From Elusimicrobiota bacterium (GTDB lineage: Bacteria > Elusimicrobiota > Elusimicrobia > UBA1565), in NCBI GenBank assembly GCA_041660925.1, contig JBAZVI010000003.1, positions 93,832 through 157,831 of the forward strand: DNA of 64,000 bases. Reading direction: 5' to 3'. Below are positions 11,668 through 47,793 of this stretch, piece by piece. A program made the translations under genes and the position numbers. Each line of letters begins with the position of its first letter. The first letter of the stretch is position 1. Under the pieces are notes generated by a model that saw only the letters and a list, made by a program, of their open reading frames with translations, was not told the origin of the DNA and searched no databases.

Positions 11668-14187
11668 ATGACTCTTCGACGGCGATTCCAGGCATCGATG
11701 GCCCTCATCCTGTTCCTGGACGTGCCGGGGACCGGTTTCTATTCCGTTTGGGCGCAGTCGATCCCCCGACAGGTCCCGACGCAAGGCCTCGTCGCTCCCC
11801 TCCAGGTCGTCCCTTCCGTTTCTGCGAGTGCGGATATCGGCGGTGGAGCGGGGCTCTCCCTCGGGGTCTCCCACCAGGCTCCGCTCGTGCCGGTCCGCTT
11901 CGACGTCCTGCCGAAGCTCGATATCCAGCCTCGGGCCATGCCGCCCGCCGCGAGCGCAGGCGTTCCCATCGGGCTCCTCGGGGCGGAGGCAACGCGAATC
12001 CCGCTCGCGGACGGAGCTCTTCCGATTTTTGCGGCGTGGAGCCGGCTTGCAGCGCGCAAGGAGAGCCCGCAGGACGGGGCGTTCCCCGTGCGGACGAAGT
12101 TCTCGGACGGAACGACCCCGACGCGAACAGGGGTGCGCCGGCTCGCCGGCGTTCTGCCTTCGGCGTTCTCGTTTCAGCAGGCTCTGAGCGCGCTTGCGGC
12201 ATGGGGTTCGCCCTCTGAGGCCTCCCCCGCGGCGGCGGCCTATGCGATGCCGCTCGTCGTCTCGCGGCGGTCGACGACGCGGTCGGACGACGCTCCGGCG
12301 GATGCGACGGTCCTGAGTCGACGTGCTCTTCCCATACCCCCGGAGCCGGCTCGCGCGCGAGCGGAGGTCCTGGATGCCGCCTATCGCTCTCGCCATCGGG
12401 AGGCCGCGGTCAAAACCGCCCTGGGGTACGCCGGTCTCTCGCTGCTGACCGCGATGAGCGCGTATCTTTTTCACATCGCCGCGTGTTCGATCGCTCCGGG
12501 ATATCTCCTTGCCTGCTTCCTCGGGCTCATGGTCCTGATGTTTGCACCTGGGGGCGGGACGGACAACTCCTTCACGGAGATGGACGAGCCGAGCAGAGCC
12601 GAACTCGAGCCTTTGGTCGGGGCTCTCGCTGCTCGGGCGTCCGTGGCGGTTCCGCGGCTGCTGCGTTCGGACTCCGAGGGGCCGAATGCCATGGTCGTGG
12701 GCGTGCCCCTCCCCTTCACGCGGGCGAGGACGCGTATGGCCTTCACCCGGAGCATTCTGCGGGCGGTCTCTCCCGACGGGTTGGGGGCGGTCGTCGGGCA
12801 CGAGCTCACGCATCTGCGCAACGGCGACATGCCTCGGCAGATCTTGTCCTCCCTCATCGTGGTCGCGGGGACGGTCCTGTCCTACGCCGCGCTCTCCGCT
12901 CCGGCGTCCTGGGTCACCGCCGCGGCGTTCTGCGGACTCGTTGCCGCGGCGTTCATCCACGCGGCGATCCTGCGGGAAAGCGAGAGCCTGGCGGATTTCG
13001 GTTCGGCGAGGCTCATGGGCGACGCCGATCCGATGTCCCGGAGCTTGCTGCGGCTCGATATTTGGAATCGCGTCGTGCGCGGGGAGAATGCGGCGCCCGT
13101 CAAAGCCTATACGTTCGCCGCGCTCCTCCAGGCGCATCCTCCGGTTCTCGCGCGCGTCGAATCCCTGCGCCGCTTGCAGACGCCCGGGGCTCCGCGACAG
13201 TCCGCTGCGCTCGGAGCGCGAGGGGGATGGCGGAGCTCAAGCATCCCTCTGCTGCACCTCCTCCTGGCGCCGGTCCTGGTCGCGGCGGGTGCGGCCGTCG
13301 GGGTCTCCGTGGGCGTCAGCATGGCGGCGGCCCTTCTCCTCGAAGGAGTCGCGATGCTCGCCGTCAAGCGATCGACCGCCCGTCGGGGAGGCGACGCATC
13401 GGCGCTCGCCCAGGACCGGCTTCAAGCCTACCTGAGCCATCCCGACCTCGTGCTCAGGCGTTGGAGCGCCCAGGCCCTGCGTTCGGCCGCGTTCCGCGCA
13501 GAATCCATATCGATCCTTCGCGGATTGCGGCGAGCGCTCCGGGACGCGCTCGGACGTGAGGAGGACGCCGGCGTCCAGGCGGAGCTTCGTTCCGCTGAAA
13601 GGCGCGCGCAGGCGCGCGAGCGCGCGGTGCTCAAGAAATCCGCCTCAAAGGAGGCCGGTTTCGAAAAAAGCATGGATTTCCTGAGCCGCATGCGGTCGCT
13701 TTCGACGGAAACGGCCGTGCCGCTCGATGAATCCTCCGCGGGCAGGCTCGGAAAGCCTTCGTTGGAATTCTATCGCGTCGATTCCGAGGATCGACGTCCC
13801 TATTTCAGCGGTCCATGGCTGATGCGGGGAGAGAGTTCGCATCTGTATGTCTTCTTCTATTCCGACGCGTCCACGGGGAAGATTTTCGTCTCAAAGTCCT
13901 TCTGGCGGGAACTCTCCCCCCGAGAGCGCATCGGCCTGCTCGTCCGCGAGCGGATGATGCTCGACGCCCGCAAGAAGTTCGTCGCGGAGGGCGGGATCTG
14001 GACGACGGAGAATCCCGACACGGTCTCCATTTTGAAGGGGATCGACGCCGAAGCTCGTTCCTACGGCTTCGACGCTGCGCGCCTTGCGAAGATCGGGGCG
14101 CGCCTGACCGACGAGACTCACGCGGAGGAGAAACGCGTCGCGAAAGAGCGCCGCGAGGAAGAAAAGCGTCGGGGACGCCGCGGCTGA
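11668..14187 (+). CDS. M48-family (HtpX-like) membrane zinc metallopeptidase with large N-terminal secreted region and ~300-aa C-terminal extension
   Basis: Signal peptide, multiple TM helices, HExxH (VGHELTHLRNGD). The ORF track start 11539 lies upstream of the likely start MTLRRR. Visibly lower GC and A/T-ending codons compared with neighbours. Confidence 0.7.
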   Translation: MTLRRRFQASMALILFLDVPGTGFYSVWAQSIPRQVPTQGLVAPLQVVPSVSASADIGGGAGLSLGVSHQAPLVPVRFDVLPKLDIQPRAMPPAASAGVPIGLLGAEATRIPLADGALPIFAAWSRLAARKESPQDGAFPVRTKFSDGTTPTRTGVRRLAGVLPSAFSFQQALSALAAWGSPSEASPAAAAYAMPLVVSRRSTTRSDDAPADATVLSRRALPIPPEPARARAEVLDAAYRSRHREAAVKTALGYAGLSLLTAMSAYLFHIAACSIAPGYLLACFLGLMVLMFAPGGGTDNSFTEMDEPSRAELEPLVGALAARASVAVPRLLRSDSEGPNAMVVGVPLPFTRARTRMAFTRSILRAVSPDGLGAVVGHELTHLRNGDMPRQILSSLIVVAGTVLSYAALSAPASWVTAAAFCGLVAAAFIHAAILRESESLADFGSARLMGDADPMSRSLLRLDIWNRVVRGENAAPVKAYTFAALLQAHPPVLARVESLRRLQTPGAPRQSAALGARGGWRSSSIPLLHLLLAPVLVAAGAAVGVSVGVSMAAALLLEGVAMLAVKRSTARRGGDASALAQDRLQAYLSHPDLVLRRWSAQALRSAAFRAESISILRGLRRALRDALGREEDAGVQAELRSAERRAQARERAVLKKSASKEAGFEKSMDFLSRMRSLSTETAVPLDESSAGRLGKPSLEFYRVDSEDRRPYFSGPWLMRGESSHLYVFFYSDASTGKIFVSKSFWRELSPRERIGLLVRERMMLDARKKFVAEGGIWTTENPDTVSILKGIDAEARSYGFDAARLAKIGARLTDETHAEEKRVAKERREEEKRRGRRG

Positions 14188-14310
14188 GCGAAGGGAATCG
14201 AACTATGAGGGCTCCGTCTTCCGCAAAGAAAGGCGCCTGTATGCCGCGCTACGCGGCTGCGCCCCGCGTCCATCCCTCGTCGTCGTGAATCGCTGTCAGC
14301 GGAATCCATC

Positions 14311-14423
14311 GGTTCGGCGGGTGACGCTCGGGAAGGCGGTCCGCCGACGAGGAGCGCAATGTCCGTTGCTGTCTGAGCACCGCAGTCGGCGGAAGGGGCC
14401 CGGGCGGCAGGCCCTGCCGAACC
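14311..14423. ncRNA. copy A of a ~110-nt conserved structured element (candidate small RNA, 3'-UTR element or REP-like element); strand undetermined
   Basis: Nested helices GGTTCGGC/GCCGAACC and CCGCCGAC/GTCGGCGG around the conserved loop GAGGAGCGCAAT...GTCTGAGCACCGCAG. Second copy at 36438-36543 has compensatory stem changes. Confidence 0.3.
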
Positions 14424-14465
14424 ATGAGGGTGTCCTTTTGTTGTGGAAAAGAACGATCGGCTGAA

Positions 14466-14536
14466 AGCGGGCGAAGGGAATCGAACCCTCGTCTAGAGCT
14501 TGGGAAGCTCCCGTTCTACCATTGAACCACGCCCGC
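14466..14536 (-). tRNA. tRNA-Gly (anticodon CCC)
   Basis: 71-nt cloverleaf folded by hand: acceptor GCGGGCG/CGCCCGC, D-stem GUUC/GAAC, anticodon stem GGAGC/GCUCU with loop UUCCCAA, T-stem GAGGG/CCCUU, T-loop UUCGAUU. No encoded CCA. Confidence 0.93.
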
Positions 14537-14632
14537 TTACAGCCGACCGGAAGAACGCCTCAAGTATAACAAACTCCCCGCAGCCCTTTCATCGGCAAAT
14601 CCATCGCCTGCAATAGCTCGTTTAGACGGACG

Positions 14633-35517: not shown

Positions 35518-36066
35518 TCAGGGGGAGCGGAGGAGGGCCTTGGCGCGCTCGACGCCGGAGGGACTCAGGCGGTAGCGCTTGCGCGCCTGCTTCGTCTTCC
35601 CCCCCTTGCGCAGCGAGACGACGAGGGCGCGCTCCATGAGGGAGGAGAGCGTCTTGGTCACGTTTGGGAGCCCTTCTCCGTGCCCCTTGAGGGCGCGGTT
35701 GACGGAGAAGGCGTCGAAGTCGGTCTCTCCCCGCACGACTTGATGCCAGAAGCCCGCCAGGAGGGCCCGCTCGGCGCTGCCCGATGTGCCCGCCGCCGCG
35801 AGGAGGGCTCCCGGGTCCGGGAAATCGAGGCTCTCTCTGCGGAGGTCCCCGCCGCGGGCGGCTCCTTCCAAGCGGGTCAGCCCGTGTGCTTCCGCCGCCC
35901 AGCGCAGGACCCGGCTCACGCCGTCCCGGTCGAGCTCCTTGAGCGCCTCCGTCACGGCGGCCAGGGCCCGGGCCTGCTCCGTCGGAGTCGTGTCCCGGCG
36001 CTTGCTCTCTTTGAGAGGGCTGCAAGCGCCGGGCCAGATGGGTCTTGTCTCCTTGGAATGAGTCAT
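35518..36066 (-). CDS. hypothetical protein, possibly winged-helix DNA-binding
   Basis: 182-aa ORF with balanced composition and an AT-rich upstream region. No firm domain match. Confidence 0.4.
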   Translation of the reverse strand: MTHSKETRPIWPGACSPLKESKRRDTTPTEQARALAAVTEALKELDRDGVSRVLRWAAEAHGLTRLEGAARGGDLRRESLDFPDPGALLAAAGTSGSAERALLAGFWHQVVRGETDFDAFSVNRALKGHGEGLPNVTKTLSSLMERALVVSLRKGGKTKQARKRYRLSPSGVERAKALLRSP

Positions 36067-36386
36067 ATTCGAGGAATATTATGGCTCATAAACGGCTCAT
36101 GTTGAAGCAATAAATCGGAACGCCGGACGACAGCAGAACCGGATCCCAGACGGGATGCGGGGAATGAGGTTTAAATCTTGAGTGGGTGCAGCTGCGCGCG
36201 AGCCGTGGCGATCAAAAAGAGGGCGTATTGGTTGATGGCACCCCCCCCGGCGCCAGAGGGCGGGGTGGTTACCCCACGCATCCGCCGCGCGCCTGCAGTC
36301 GTACCCATGATCGGCGGGCGTTGACATAGGCATGGTGTCGTGCAAATGCCGCCAGGAAGTCGCCGCCCTCTCCCTCCGAAGTCGAT

Positions 36387-36430
36387 AAACGAGAAGCCGC
36401 CCGCTTCGGAAAGCGGGCGGCTTCTCGTTT
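36387..36430. terminator. perfect 20-bp palindrome (AAACGAGAAGCCGCCCGCTT-cgga-AAGCGGGCGGCTTCTCGTTT); bidirectional terminator-like hairpin
   Basis: Exact inverted repeat flanked by A/T on both sides. Downstream of pccB and the conserved element on the minus strand. Confidence 0.6.
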
Positions 36431-36437
36431 GTTAGAC

Positions 36438-36543
36438 GGCGAGGGGTGGCCCAAGGAAGGCCCCGTCGCCGAGGAGCGCAATTGCCGTCGTCGTCTGAGC
36501 ACCGCAGGCGACGGGAGGTCGCCTTGGGACAGGCCCCCTCGCC
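36438..36543. ncRNA. copy B of the ~110-nt conserved structured element (see 14311-14423)
   Basis: Helices GGCGAGGGG/CCCCTCGCC, GGCCCAAGG/CCTTGGGAC, CGTCGCC/GGCGACG around the same conserved loop. Ends 3 nt before the pccB stop codon. Confidence 0.3.
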
Positions 36544-36545
36544 GT

Positions 36546-38153
36546 TTAGAGCGGGATGTTCCCCCGGTTCGGGAGTTCTCCCGGCTTCCTTTTATCGGCC
36601 AGGAATTGGAAGGCGCGGATGACCGTGTAGCGGATCTGCGTCGGCTCGATGACTTCGTCGACCGACCCGGTCGAGGCCGTCTGGTAGGGCGCTGCGAAGC
36701 GCTCCTCGTACTCTTTGGAGAGCTTGAGGCGCAGCCCGTCCTTGTCCTCCGCCGCGGAGATGTCGCGCGAGTAGAGGATCTCGATGGCCCCGCGCGGGCC
36801 CATGACCGCGATCTCGGCGCAGGGCAGCGCGTAGTTGAAGTCGCCGCGCATGAGCTTGGAGCTCATCGCGATGTAGGCGCCGCCGTAGGCCTTGCGCAGG
36901 ACGACGGTCACCTTCGGCACCGTCGCTTCGGCGTAGGCGTGCAGCAGCTTCGCGCCGTGGCGGATGATGCCGGCGTGCTCCTGCTCGACGCCCGGCCAGT
37001 AGCCGGGGACGTCGACGAGGGTCAGGATGGGGATGTTGAAAGCGTTGAGGAAGCGGATGAAGCGCGCGGCCTTGTCGGAGGAGTCGATGTCGAGCGCGCC
37101 GGCCTTGTGGGCCGGGTTGTTCGCGATGACGCCGACGACCTCCCCCCCGAGGCGGATGAAGCCCACGACGATGTTCTTGGCGAACTCCGCGTGGATCTCG
37201 TAGAACTTGTGCTCGTCGGCGATCTGCCAGACGACGTGGTGCACGCGGTAGGGCTTGCGCGGGTCCACTTCGCAGAGGGCCTCGAGGACGGGCGTCGTGC
37301 GCCGGATGGGGTCCGGGCTGGGGACGTGCGGCGGCTTCTCGAAGCGGCTCTGCGGGAGGTAGCTGACGAGCTCCTTGATCTGGCGGAAGCAGTCCTGCTC
37401 GGAGGCGGCGACCACGTGGCAGACGCCGGACTTCGAGGAGTGCGGCTTCGAGCCGCCGAGGTCGTCGAAGGTCACGACCTCCCCGGTCGCCGCCTTCACG
37501 ACGTCGGGACCGGTCACGAACATGTGGCTGATGCCGTCGACCATGAACACGAAGTCCGTCAGGGCCGGGGAGTAGACGGCCCCGCCCGCGCACGGCCCGA
37601 GGATGACGGAGATCTGCGGGATGACGCCCGAGCACTTCACGTTCCGATAGAAGATCTCTCCGTAGCCGTCGAGCGAGTCCACGCCTTCCTGGATGCGCGC
37701 CCCGCCCGAGTCGAGCAGGCCGATGAGCGGCACGCGGTTCTCGTAGGCGAGGTCCATGACGCGGCAGATCTTCTTGGCCTGCTCGAGCCCGAGCGAGCCC
37801 CCGAGCACCGTGAAGTCCTGGGAGAAGACCGCGACCTCGCGGCCGTTGATGCGGCCGAAGCCGGTGATGGCGCCGTCGCCGGGGATGTCCTTCTCGCGCA
37901 GTCCGAAGTCGTTGCAGCGGGTCTTCACGAGGAGCCCGATCTCCTGGAAGCTCCCCTCGTCGAGGAGGTAGTGGATGCGCTCGCGGGCGGTGAGCTTGCC
38001 TTTCTTCTTCTGGGCTTCGATGCGCTTGGGGTCGCCGCCGGCGCGGGCCTTCTCGACGAGCTCGCGCATGCGTCCCACGTTCGTGGGGACCATGCGGTGC
38101 TTCTTCGGGGCCTTCTGGACCGGGGTCGGGGGAGTGCTCTCGGGGGCGTTCAT
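36546..38153 (-). CDS. pccB: acyl-CoA carboxylase carboxyltransferase beta subunit (propionyl-CoA carboxylase beta / methylmalonyl-CoA carboxyltransferase family)
   Basis: 535 aa. Characteristic GGAYIAMSS, VPGYWPG, and duplicated crotonase-fold CT domains. Confidence 0.9.
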   Translation of the reverse strand: MNAPESTPPTPVQKAPKKHRMVPTNVGRMRELVEKARAGGDPKRIEAQKKKGKLTARERIHYLLDEGSFQEIGLLVKTRCNDFGLREKDIPGDGAITGFGRINGREVAVFSQDFTVLGGSLGLEQAKKICRVMDLAYENRVPLIGLLDSGGARIQEGVDSLDGYGEIFYRNVKCSGVIPQISVILGPCAGGAVYSPALTDFVFMVDGISHMFVTGPDVVKAATGEVVTFDDLGGSKPHSSKSGVCHVVAASEQDCFRQIKELVSYLPQSRFEKPPHVPSPDPIRRTTPVLEALCEVDPRKPYRVHHVVWQIADEHKFYEIHAEFAKNIVVGFIRLGGEVVGVIANNPAHKAGALDIDSSDKAARFIRFLNAFNIPILTLVDVPGYWPGVEQEHAGIIRHGAKLLHAYAEATVPKVTVVLRKAYGGAYIAMSSKLMRGDFNYALPCAEIAVMGPRGAIEILYSRDISAAEDKDGLRLKLSKEYEERFAAPYQTASTGSVDEVIEPTQIRYTVIRAFQFLADKRKPGELPNRGNIPL

Positions 38154-38991
38154 GGTCGGCCTTCCGTGCTCGTGTAGGCGATGCTCAGGGTCTCCTCGCC
38201 GCGGAGGAGGGTCTCGAATCGGATCTCGGGGCTGCCGAGCGCTTCCCAGCGGGCCCGCGCGCGATTGTGCAATTCGAGCCGCAGGTCGTCGAGGCGCGGG
38301 CAGTTCTCCTTTCGCATCGCCCCGGACGCGCTCTGGGAAGCGGACGGGGGCTCCACTCGGCTCGCCCCTGCGGCGCCCCGCGAAGCGGGGGCAGGGTCCG
38401 ACGCAGGGGCCAGCTGCAGATCAGGAACGAAGCGCACGTCCCAGAGGTCCACCGAGAGGCCGAGGGTCAGGAGCTTGAGCACGGCCTCCTTCAGCGTCCA
38501 CAGGCGCGTCTGCGCCTGCGGGGTGTCGAGCGCGGGGCGCTCGCTGGGGTGCGCGAAGATGGTGAGGAACGACTGCGGGCGTTCGGCGACGCGCTCGACG
38601 TCCACGCCGACGCGGCCGTTGGCGGGAGCGGCCGCGGCGACGGCCCCGCCCGGTCCGTGGGAGATGGACAGGAACGGGGCGCCGGCTTCGGGGTCGCCGG
38701 GCAGCGCCGCGTAGGGCGAGCCGTCGCGGCGGTTGAGGATGGCCACCTCGCAGAGGCGGTCGGAGCGCCCCTTCTCGGCGAGAAGCGCGCAGACCAAGCG
38801 CTTGGCCGCGAGGCGGCCGGAGAGCCAGTCCTTGCGGCGCTTGGGCACCTTGAACGCCGCGAGCTGCGCGAGCTCCGCGGCGCCGAGCTGCTCCGAGAGG
38901 TCTTCTCCCCCCTCGTAGCGCTCGGCCCAGCGCGCGGCTTCCTCAGGGCTCAGGCGCAGGAGGCGGCAGGGTCCGACGCGTTCGGTGAGGC

Positions 38992-38995
<4 letters not shown>
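38150..38995 (-). CDS. Sfp/HetI/PfaE-type 4'-phosphopantetheinyl transferase
   Basis: DWLSGRLAAKRL, GVDVE and WTLKEAVLK motifs. Its ATG overlaps the megasynthase stop (ATGA). Confidence 0.85.

Positions 38996-47793
<8,798 letters not shown>

What the first reader, a model, noticed from the sequence alone, without database searches (positions are those of the whole stretch)
14311..14423. Two copies of a ~110-nt element with compensatory base-pair changes: candidate structured RNA
The elements at 14311-14423 and 36438-36543 share a conserved 37-nt loop (GAGGAGCGCAAT..GTCTGAGCACCGCAG) and a flanking GGAAGG motif. They differ in their stems: CCGCCGAC/GTCGGCGG versus CGTCGCC/GGCGACG, and outer helices GGTTCGGC/GCCGAACC versus GGCGAGGGG/CCCCTCGCC. 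Base pairing is preserved throughout. That covariation pattern is what a functional RNA fold would show, although a DNA-level palindromic element is also possible. Copy A sits about 40 nt from the tRNA-Gly 3' end, downstream of the M48 gene. Copy B sits between the pccB stop and a 20-bp perfect terminator hairpin.
Basis: seen in the sequence. Interest (0 to 1): 0.65.

Follow-up and report, generated by a model that had tools for sequence, protein, structure and literature searches.

The report
Conserved-apex hairpin repeat in Elusimicrobiota
A ~110-base hairpin with an almost invariant tip and freely co-varying stems occurs at least three times next to gene ends in one uncultivated Elusimicrobiota genome; it is real, matches no catalogued RNA family, but is so far confined to that one organism and its job (RNA or DNA level) is unresolved.

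Summary
Both window copies (14311-14423, 36436-36545) exist as described. I found a third copy in the same MAG (L014:2321-2427, minus strand). All three share one architecture: helices P1, P2 and P3 of differing sequence, small purine-rich internal loops, and a 36-nt apex of which 31 nt are invariant. In the modelled structure, 69 of 69 base-pair cells are paired. Eleven of 23 pairs carry double compensatory changes, and none has a one-sided change.

No Rfam 15 family matches. The RNA interpretation is only partly supported:
- The element is absent downstream of pccB and of the deoxyhypusine synthase gene in relatives, and from about 135 kb of relatives' DNA.
- No shared promoter is present.
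- Its position relative to canonical terminators differs between copies.
- Only one G·U occurs in about 78 pairs, so the strand is unresolved.
- Copy A lies between the tRNA-Gly gene and a duplicated 16-nt piece of that tRNA's 3' half. Copy B is flanked by TTAGA repeats.

Best reading (0.42): a lineage-specific, inserted, REP/TRIT-like gene-end element whose fold is under selection and whose invariant apex is a recognition module. A dedicated ncRNA gene and a single-stranded-DNA site remain live rivals. Interest is moderate.

The parts
14311..14423 (+). Copy A, whole element (113 nt). It lies between the M48 peptidase gene (stop codon 14185-14187) and the 3' end of tRNA-Gly (14465).
   Evidence: The covariance model R1 scores it 86.4 bits, E 1e-14. 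An identical sequence is present in the independent Logan assembly L017.
14311..14321 (+). Copy A, P1 5' arm GGTTCGGCGGG. It pairs with 14412-14423 (CCCTGCCGAACC, one bulged T). The inner GGG/CCC is invariant in all copies.
14325..14332 (+). Copy A, P2 5' arm CGCTCGGG. It pairs with 14399-14406 (CCCGGGCG) and contains the only G·U pair in the family.
14340..14348 (+). Copy A, P3 5' arm TCCGCCGAC. It pairs with 14385-14393 (GTCGGCGGA).
14349..14384 (+). Copy A, conserved apex GAGGAGCGCAAT-GTCCGTTGCT-GTCTGAGCACCGCA. It is predicted to form an internal helix P4 (G3-C33, G4-C32, G6-C30, C7-G29, C9-G27, A10-U26). It also reads as GAGGAG, 5 nt, then ATG TCC GTT GCT GTC TGA.
36436..36545 (+). Copy B, whole element (110 nt). 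It lies between the pccB stop codon (36546-36548, - strand) and the bidirectional terminator.
   Evidence: R1 scores it 100 bits, E 2e-17. An identical sequence is present in the JGI contig L012.
36436..36446 (+). Copy B, P1 5' arm ACGGCGAGGGG. It pairs with 36535-36545 (CCCCTCGCCGT).
36450..36456 (+). Copy B, P2 5' arm CCCAAGG. It pairs with 36522-36528 (CCTTGGG).
36462..36470 (+). Copy B, P3 5' arm CCCGTCGCC. It pairs with 36507-36515 (GGCGACGGG).
36471..36506 (+). Copy B, conserved apex GAGGAGCGCAAT-TGCCGTCGTC-GTCTGAGCACCGCA.
36387..36430 (.). Perfect 20-bp hairpin with an A-tract and a T-tract, i.e. a bidirectional intrinsic terminator. It is adjacent to copy B but not part of the repeat.
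36432..36436 (.). TTAGA, repeated at 36546-36550. These are direct repeats immediately flanking copy B. Removing the element plus one repeat places the pccB stop codon directly on the terminator.
   Evidence: Seen in the sequence; not seen at copies A or C.
14188..14203 (.). GCGAAGGGAATCGAAC, an exact 16-nt duplicate of part of the tRNA-Gly 3' half (T-loop to acceptor stem, 14471-14486). It sits right after the M48 stop codon, and copy A lies in the 267 nt between the two copies.
   Evidence: (D3, D7).

Best explanation
This is a small, lineage-restricted family of ~105-113-nt rod-shaped hairpin elements. At least three loci occur in one Elusimicrobiota MAG. The elements sit in non-coding DNA at the 3' ends of genes.

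Shown:
- The three helices (P1-P3) differ in sequence between copies but are always fully paired.
- The 36-nt apex and the short purine-rich internal loops (UGR, AAGGC, A(A)GG, RCAGG) are nearly invariant.
- The fold and the apex sequence are therefore both under selection.
- The loci are not shared with related species.

Inferred:
- The copies arrived by insertion into 'safe' gene-end sites rather than by vertical inheritance.
- They are carried passively into the 3' ends of the neighbouring transcripts (the tRNA-Gly trailer, the pccB 3'UTR, the M48 3'UTR). There they form a very stable hairpin in either orientation.
- The variable stems act as a scaffold that presents the invariant apex to a sequence-specific trans-acting factor. 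That factor could be the protein that propagates the element or a host nucleic-acid-binding protein.

Functionally it behaves like REP/BIME or mycobacterial TRIT elements. It does not behave like a riboswitch or a classical promoter-to-terminator sRNA gene.
For: - Three copies share identical architecture, and 31/36 apex positions are invariant.
- 69/69 cells are paired, 11/23 pairs have compensatory changes, none is one-sided, and 0/500 shuffles reach this. RNAalifold finds the same helices independently.
- All copies are intergenic and within 0-53 nt of the 3' end of a gene: tRNA-Gly, pccB and DHS.
- Two of three copies sit beside a canonical bidirectional terminator, but on opposite sides of it with respect to the adjacent gene end.
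- The element is absent downstream of pccB in relatives L006, L009, L010 and L025. It is absent downstream of DHS in L016, which has only a terminator there, and in L018. There are no covariance-model hits in about 135 kb of relatives' DNA.
- Exact 20-nt apex scans of GTDB species representatives and of JGI metagenomes return only chance hits plus copy C.
- Copy A lies between tRNA-Gly and a duplicated tRNA-Gly 3' fragment, and copy B has TTAGA flanks.
- There is almost no G·U, and copies B and C are equally stable on both strands.
- Protein accessions MFA6029296, MFA6029317 and MFA6029973 place all three loci in one MAG.
Against: - Only three loci are known, so this is not the tens to hundreds of copies typical of REP or TRIT.
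- In known mobile palindromes the stems or termini are the conserved, recognised part. Here they are the variable part.
- No transposase, RAYT or integrase gene was seen near any copy.
- Flanking direct repeats are seen at one copy only.
- Copies in independent assemblies are identical, so no presence/absence polymorphism was observed.
- No true 'empty site' could be aligned, because synteny downstream of pccB is broken in relatives.
- Purine-rich loops and the lower energy of copy A on the + strand hint at a strand-specific RNA.
- No expression data were available.
Confidence: 0.42

Rival explanations
1. A dedicated family of paralogous structured non-coding RNAs read from the + strand. The purine-rich loops and the apex would bind a protein, or would mimic a Shine-Dalgarno site.
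For: - The pattern of conserved loops with covarying stems is the classical signature of a structured RNA.
- Copy A is 11 kcal/mol more stable on the + strand, and its one wobble pair is G·U on +.
- Unpaired segments are purine-rich on the + strand.
- Copy C on that strand is followed by a hairpin plus UUCCUCUUUG.
- There is no Rfam match, so it would be a new family.
Against: - No promoter-like site is shared upstream.
- Copy B on the + strand lies just after a terminator and runs straight into antisense pccB with no terminator of its own.
- One G·U in about 78 pairs is unusually few for an RNA, by my own knowledge of typical helices.
- The element is not conserved in relatives.
- Only three sequences are known, so no R-scape-grade statistics are possible.
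Confidence: 0.25
2. A site that works as folded single-stranded DNA or as a cruciform. It would be a recognition hairpin for a recombinase or transposase, or a priming signal left by integrated mobile DNA. This is analogous to ssoA origins, where a conserved loop and an internal site sit in an otherwise variable hairpin.
For: - Stems are almost purely Watson-Crick, and B and C are equally stable on both strands.
- Copy A lies inside a 283-bp interval bounded by a 16-nt tRNA-Gly direct repeat typical of att sites.
- TTAGA repeats flank copy B.
- The element is absent from orthologous sites.
- ssoA-type origins are large ssDNA hairpins with conserved RSB and orientation dependence (PMC5703833).
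Against: - No recombinase or Rep gene is nearby.
- There is no match in plasmid, phage or viral collections.
- The loci are ordinary chromosomal housekeeping intergenic regions.
- Direct repeats are not consistent across copies.
Confidence: 0.2
3. The apex is a translated mini-gene: a Shine-Dalgarno-like GAGGAG, a 5-nt spacer, AUG, four codons and UGA, presented on a stable stem.
For: - Copies A and C both read AUG UCC GUN GCN GUC UGA (MSVAV).
- Their only two differences in the variable decamer fall on third codon positions and are synonymous.
Against: - Copy B has AUU instead of AUG and two amino-acid changes.
- Two synonymous differences have a chance probability of about 0.1.
- The GAGGAG and UGA are predicted to be paired in P4.
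- There is no precedent or test here.
Confidence: 0.05
4. Nothing special: ordinary GC-rich terminator hairpins or chance palindromes in a 71% GC genome.
For: - Many inverted repeats exist in the window (118 pairs).
- The elements are at gene ends.
Against: - A 27-nt exact shared core has zero expectation in shuffles.
- Covariance-model E-values are 1e-14 to 1e-17.
- No U-tract follows the hairpin on either strand, and two copies sit beside a genuine terminator, which makes a terminator role redundant.
Confidence: 0.02

Closest known systems
TRIT (Tuberculosis Rho-independent terminator motif) of Mycobacterium
   Same: Both are lineage-restricted, GC-rich, largely palindromic motifs with conservation of both sequence and structure. 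Both are positioned tightly at gene termini and are usable in both directions. The TRIT authors also proposed that a factor binds the conserved motif (PMC3152330). Copy B here abuts the pccB stop codon.
   Different: TRIT has 147 copies per genome and its conserved sequence is in the stem. Here only 3 loci are known, the stems vary, and the apex is conserved. There is no sequence similarity, and the phylum is different. Two copies here sit next to a separate canonical terminator.
REP / BIME / REPIN elements of Proteobacteria
   Same: Both are intergenic, lie at the 3' ends of genes, are hairpin-forming, are transcribed passively with neighbouring genes and are lineage-specific. BIMEs can carry a conserved central protein-binding motif between inverted arms (own knowledge).
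   Different: REP arms are 20-40 nt and are conserved in sequence because the RAYT transposase recognises them. They occur in hundreds of copies. Here the arms are the variable part, the copy number is low, and no RAYT was seen.
ssoA-type single-strand origins of rolling-circle plasmids
   Same: Both are ~130-160-nt orientation-dependent hairpins in which short conserved sites sit in an otherwise poorly conserved but structurally maintained fold (PMC5703833).
   Different: ssoA origins are plasmid-borne, lie next to rep/dso and are typical of Firmicutes. No sequence match or plasmid context is present here.
Multicopy sRNA families with conserved loop 'seeds' (e.g. Qrr, alpha-proteobacterial cuckoo/ar families, Rsm/Csr sponges)
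   Same: Both have several paralogues per genome with invariant single-stranded motifs on covarying stems. GGA/GGAG-like motifs occur on the + strand and CCUCC-like motifs on the - strand.
   Different: Those sRNAs have their own promoter and terminator and are conserved across related species. cmscan gives only noise-level scores here (RsmW 13.8 bits against a gathering score of 52; ar7 17.2 against 60).

Membership tests
Any Rfam 15 family | A score at or above the family's gathering threshold against its covariance model. | tested here: not met
   Only tRNA-Gly passes in the window. At E<=10 the best hits over the elements are far below threshold. L014 has none at E<=0.01.
Intrinsic (Rho-independent) terminator | A GC-rich hairpin immediately followed by a U-tract. 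| tested here: not met
   No T-run follows the outer stem on either strand in A, B or C. The scanner calls the neighbouring hairpins, not the element.
REP/REPIN | Arm (stem) sequence conserved between copies. | tested here: not met
   P2 and outer P1 differ at most positions between copies. 11/23 pairs changed on both sides.
REP/REPIN | High copy number (tens to hundreds) and a cognate RAYT gene in the genome. | not testable with these tools
   The rest of the source MAG could not be fetched. Only 3 loci were seen, and there is no transposase among the neighbours.
MITE | Terminal inverted repeats conserved between copies. | tested here: not met
   The outer P1 arms differ between the copies: GGTTCGGC, ACGGCGAG and GCGGC.
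MITE | Target-site duplication at every copy. | tested here: inconclusive
   TTAGA flanks copy B only. There is no clean repeat at A or C.
Integron attC site | Conserved inverted core sites R''(RYYYAAC)/R'(GTTRRRY) at the base of the hairpin, with a variable centre. | tested here: not met
   The pattern here is the opposite: variable base and conserved centre. The flanks of B are direct repeats, not inverted.
TRIT | Mycobacterium-restricted conserved stem sequence overlapping the stop codon. | tested here: not met
   The host is an Elusimicrobiota MAG. The stems are not conserved. The definition is taken from PMC3152330. No TRIT model was available to score.
tRNA-targeted integrative element (att-flanked) | A direct repeat of the tRNA 3' part bounding the inserted DNA. 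| tested here: met
   This holds for locus A only. The 16-nt exact repeat lies at 14188-14203 and 14471-14486, with further similarity on both sides. The interval is only 283 bp and has no integrase, so at most it is a remnant.
Csr/Rsm sponge RNA | Multiple GGA motifs in the apical loops of short hairpins, and an Rfam clan CL00106 match. | tested here: not met
   RsmW scores 13.8 bits, E 2.8, against a gathering score of 52. The GGA motifs lie in internal loops or the P4 helix, not in short hairpin loops.

The most novel reading that the evidence does not exclude
A previously undescribed class of structured nucleic-acid element in which an invariant ~36-nt apical module is the recognised part and three freely covarying helices are only scaffold. 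The module carries an SD-AUG-4-codon-UGA reading. The element would be either a new protein- or ribosome-binding ncRNA class specific to uncultivated Elusimicrobiota, or a new kind of mobile hairpin recognised through its apex rather than its termini.
Probability: 0.2. Interest if true: 0.6.

Novelty: new member of a known kind. Interest (0 to 1): 0.36.

Why it matters
If the fold is read as RNA, this would be a new orphan structured-RNA family from a phylum with almost no characterised non-coding RNAs. Its invariant apex gives a ready handle for pull-downs.

If it is a mobile or DNA-level hairpin, its inverted conservation logic (conserved tip, variable termini) would point to an unfamiliar recognition mode.

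Either way, it marks gene-end insertion sites and a decayed tRNA-Gly att scar in this MAG.

The practical weight is limited: three loci in one uncultivated organism, and no functional data.

Tried and rejected
1. Rfam at gathering score and at permissive thresholds on the window, both loci and L014 returned nothing.

2. An exact-pattern scan with GGAGCGCAATN{8,12}GTCTGAGCAC of GTDB species genomes gave 5 hits. I judged them chance: about 5 were expected, they lie in unrelated taxa, they lack the flanking architecture, and the model scores them at most 22 bits. Two orthologous Cryptobacteroides hits do sit in a hairpin, but Rfam does not call them.

3. The JGI metagenome scan returned one real extra copy (L014) and one coding chance hit (L013, a carbonic-anhydrase-like ORF).

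4. The viral, plasmid and phage collections returned nothing.

5. Orthologous loci reached via pccB and DHS homologues lack the element.

6. The M48 homologue search was wasted on an E-value cut that was too strict and returned only the query itself.

7. Attempts to reach the rest of the source MAG failed or added only about 2 kb. The collections evidently do not serve the source contigs. 'Absent elsewhere' therefore refers only to other organisms and to an exact 20-nt apex.

8. No flanking similarity exists between the copies beyond the hairpin.

9. A K-turn or C/D-box reading of the CUGA...GA in the apex was rejected by inspection, because the required GA is not adjacent to the closing stem.

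10. An attC reading was rejected, because the flanking repeats are direct rather than inverted.

11. The 182-aa ORF downstream of copy B is not homologous to the gene after pccB in L010, so no empty-site alignment was possible.

12. A literature search for the apex strings found only unrelated primers.

Full report
**Observation.** The two elements are present as described. The core GAGGAGCGCAAT-N10-GTCTGAGCACCGCAG occurs exactly twice in the 64-kb window. Both occurrences are on the + strand, even when 3 mismatches are allowed, and none of 100 dinucleotide shuffles gives a match. Each copy folds on its own into three nested helices, with z-scores of -3.8 (A) and -4.1 (B) on the + strand. The context statements hold:
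- tRNA-Gly(CCC) lies at 14465-14537 on the - strand.
- The M48 peptidase ORF ends at 14187.
- pccB (36546-38153, - strand) ends 0-2 nt from copy B.
- A perfect 20-bp hairpin with A and T tracts lies at 36387-36430.

**Anatomy.** Reading the + strand, the parts run in this order (coordinates):
- P1, 8-11 bp. The inner GGG/CCC is invariant.
- An internal loop: UGR on the 5' side and RCAGG(N) on the 3' side.
- P2, 6-8 bp: CGCUCGGG in A, CCCAAGG in B, CGGCGG in C.
- An internal loop: AAGGC(GG) on the 5' side and A(A)GG(NN) on the 3' side.
- P3, 9 bp, consensus YCCGNCRMC.
- A 36-nt apex.

In the apex, 31 of 36 positions are invariant. The central decamer keeps CCGU and one G. RNAalifold predicts that the apex is itself a helix with two purine-purine mismatches (G3-C33, G4-C32, G6-C30, C7-G29, C9-G27, A10-U26) closing a ~15-nt loop. 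Because these positions never vary, this P4 has no covariation support.

**A third copy.** Scanning JGI metagenomes with a 20-base apex pattern returned one genuine new locus. It is L014:2321-2427 on the - strand, downstream of a deoxyhypusine synthase (DHS) gene. Its stems are GCGGCGGG, CGGCGG and CCCGGCACC, a third set of sequences, all perfectly paired. The NCBI protein accessions are MFA6029296.1 (M48), MFA6029317.1 (pccB) and MFA6029973.1 (DHS). The numbering is close enough to indicate that all three loci belong to one Elusimicrobiota MAG, on contigs of 354,779 and 329,053 nt. Copies A and B were recovered unchanged in independent assemblies: L017 from Logan SRR18595301 and L012 from JGI 3300014208.

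**Covariation.** I built a covariance model from the three copies after trimming helix and loop lengths by hand to a common 100 columns. This was used as a search device only. The real sequences score 86-100 bits, with E-values of 1e-14 to 2e-17. On the resulting structural alignment:
- 69/69 cells form standard pairs.
- 11 of 23 pairs have changes on both sides.
- No pair has a one-sided change and none is broken.
- No shuffle out of 500 reaches the observed values.
- Sliding the 3' partners by 1-3 columns lowers pairing to 35-52%.

This alignment is fitted to the model, which biases it toward the structure. However, the single-sequence folds and RNAalifold give the same helices. The fold is therefore maintained by selection, and so is the apex sequence, which stayed fixed while the stems turned over.

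**What it is not.** No Rfam 15 family matches at gathering score. At E<=10 only noise appears, for example RsmW at 13.8 bits against a threshold of 52. It is not an intrinsic terminator. No U-tract follows the outer stem on either strand, and copies B and C sit beside a separate canonical bidirectional terminator. It is not a typical REP or MITE, because the arms are the variable part. It is not attC-like, because the conservation pattern is inverted and the flanks of B are direct repeats. Nothing similar is found in the plasmid, phage or viral collections.

**Distribution.** The host is an Elusimicrobiota bacterium. The exact apex pattern gave only chance-level hits among the GTDB species representatives. 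Relatives with 80-87% identical pccB or DHS proteins lack the element at the same gene ends:
- L006 has a 20-nt spacer after pccB.
- L010 has a 36-nt spacer.
- L025 has a 4-nt spacer.
- L009 carries an unrelated palindrome there.
- L016 has only a terminator after DHS.

The model finds nothing in about 135 kb of relatives' DNA or in the rest of the window. The source genome's own contigs were not retrievable. The true copy number in that genome is therefore unknown, and is at least 3.

**Strand and transcription.** This could not be resolved.

In favour of the + strand:
- Copy A is 11 kcal/mol more stable on + (-66.3 vs -55.0).
- Its one wobble pair is G·U on +.
- The unpaired segments are purine-rich on +.

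Against any strand-specific RNA:
- Copies B and C are equally stable on both strands.
- Only one G·U occurs in about 78 pairs.
- There is no shared promoter-like site.
- The order relative to terminators conflicts. In B it is pccB, then element, then terminator. In C it is DHS, then terminator, then element.

On the - strand, all three copies lie downstream of a gene: tRNA-Gly at 41 nt, pccB at 2 nt and DHS at about 53 nt. With n=3 this is not significant.

**Signs of insertion.** Copy A lies in the 267 nt between the intact tRNA-Gly and an exact 16-nt duplicate of the tRNA's T-loop-to-acceptor segment (14188-14203 vs 14471-14486). Weaker similarity extends on both sides: AGACG upstream, and TCAGCCG after a 6-nt gap. 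A second repeat, CGAACYATGAGGG, links that fragment to the 3' boundary of the element. This is the layout of an att scar at a tRNA gene. Copy B is flanked by TTAGA on both sides. Deleting the element and one repeat puts the pccB stop codon directly on its terminator. Copy C shows no flanking repeat, and the three loci share no flanking sequence.

**Mechanism.** I commit to the following, at 0.42. This is a lineage-specific, inserted, gene-end structured element, analogous in behaviour to REP/BIME and to the mycobacterial TRIT motif (PMC3152330). Its stems serve as a scaffold kept paired by selection, and its invariant apex is a sequence-specific recognition module for an unidentified factor.

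Shown:
- The fold and its covariation.
- Apex invariance.
- Intergenic gene-end positions.
- Absence from relatives' orthologous sites.

Inferred:
- Insertion as the origin of the copies.
- Passive transcription with the neighbouring genes.
- Protein recognition of the apex.

The rivals are:
- A dedicated + strand ncRNA family (0.25).
- A single-stranded-DNA or cruciform site left by mobile DNA, comparable in logic to ssoA origins (PMC5703833) (0.20).
- A translated SD-AUG-4-codon-UGA mini-gene in the apex (0.05). Copies A and C both encode MSVAV and differ only at two synonymous third positions, but B has AUU as its first codon.
- Chance or ordinary terminators (0.02).

**Novelty and score.** The element has no catalogued family and an unusual conservation logic (conserved tip, variable arms). 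However, the general kind, a lineage-restricted structured intergenic repeat at gene ends, is well known. Only three loci in one uncultivated organism are available, with no expression or functional data. I rate it as a new member of a known kind, with interest 0.36. The most novel surviving reading is a new apex-recognised RNA or mobile-hairpin class, with probability about 0.2 and interest 0.6 if true.

Noticed in passing
window 14188-14211 vs 14471-14486 and 14418-14430: An exact 16-nt duplicate of the tRNA-Gly 3' half (GCGAAGGGAATCGAAC) sits immediately after the M48 stop codon, 283 nt from the real tRNA. Similarity extends beyond it (AGACG upstream, TCAGCCG after a 6-nt gap). A second repeat, CGAACYATGAGGG, ties it to the edge of element A. 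The layout looks like a decayed att scar of an integrative element at tRNA-Gly.
   Followed up: partly
window 14454-14473 with 14530-14549: The tRNA-Gly acceptor stem is extended by about 12 further base pairs between the 5' leader and the 3' trailer (20-nt arms, 90% complementary). This is an unusually long leader-trailer helix for a bacterial pre-tRNA.
   Followed up: no
window 36432-36436 and 36546-36550: TTAGA direct repeats immediately flank element B. The right-hand one contains the pccB stop codon. Excising the 114-bp unit would join the stop codon directly to the terminator hairpin.
   Followed up: partly
window 14349-14376, 36471-36498; L014:2367-2394 (-): The conserved apex reads as a Shine-Dalgarno-like GAGGAG, 5 nt, AUG (AUU in copy B), four codons and UGA. 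Copies A and C both give MSVAV and differ only at two synonymous third positions.
   Followed up: partly
L009:4552-4690 (+): In a relative (GCA_016212885.1), the spacer after pccB holds an unrelated 139-nt element. It folds into a 16-bp outer stem enclosing three hairpins, a cloverleaf-like shape, at -60.8 kcal/mol with z = -5.2. The covariance model does not hit it.
   Followed up: partly
L014:2540-2660 (-): About 100-200 nt upstream of copy C there is a cluster of further GC-rich hairpins (GGCCCTCCCGC...GCGGGAGGGCC, CCCACCTCC...GGAGGGTGGG, GGGGGA...TCCCCC), folding at -57.8 kcal/mol with z = -3.05. Their nature is unknown.
   Followed up: no
window 36067-36386: A ~320-nt stretch with no convincing ORF lies between the terminator next to copy B and the next - strand gene. 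A sigma-70-like site on the + strand (36053-36082) points into it, and the bidirectional terminator lies at its far end. It may be an unannotated small transcript.
   Followed up: no
L001:5914-6032 (+) and L005 (- strand, around 76-104): Two Candidatus Cryptobacteroides MAGs share a near-identical hairpin that happens to contain GGAGCGCAAT-N9-GTCTGAGCAC. Rfam does not call it, and the element model scores it below 15 bits. The apex match is probably chance, but the locus is conserved between the two species.
   Followed up: partly
window 36546-47793 (-): A giant PKS-like gene (2933 aa), a 4'-phosphopantetheinyl transferase and pccB form a cluster. Its order is conserved in relatives (L009, L010), while everything downstream of pccB differs between genomes.
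   Followed up: no
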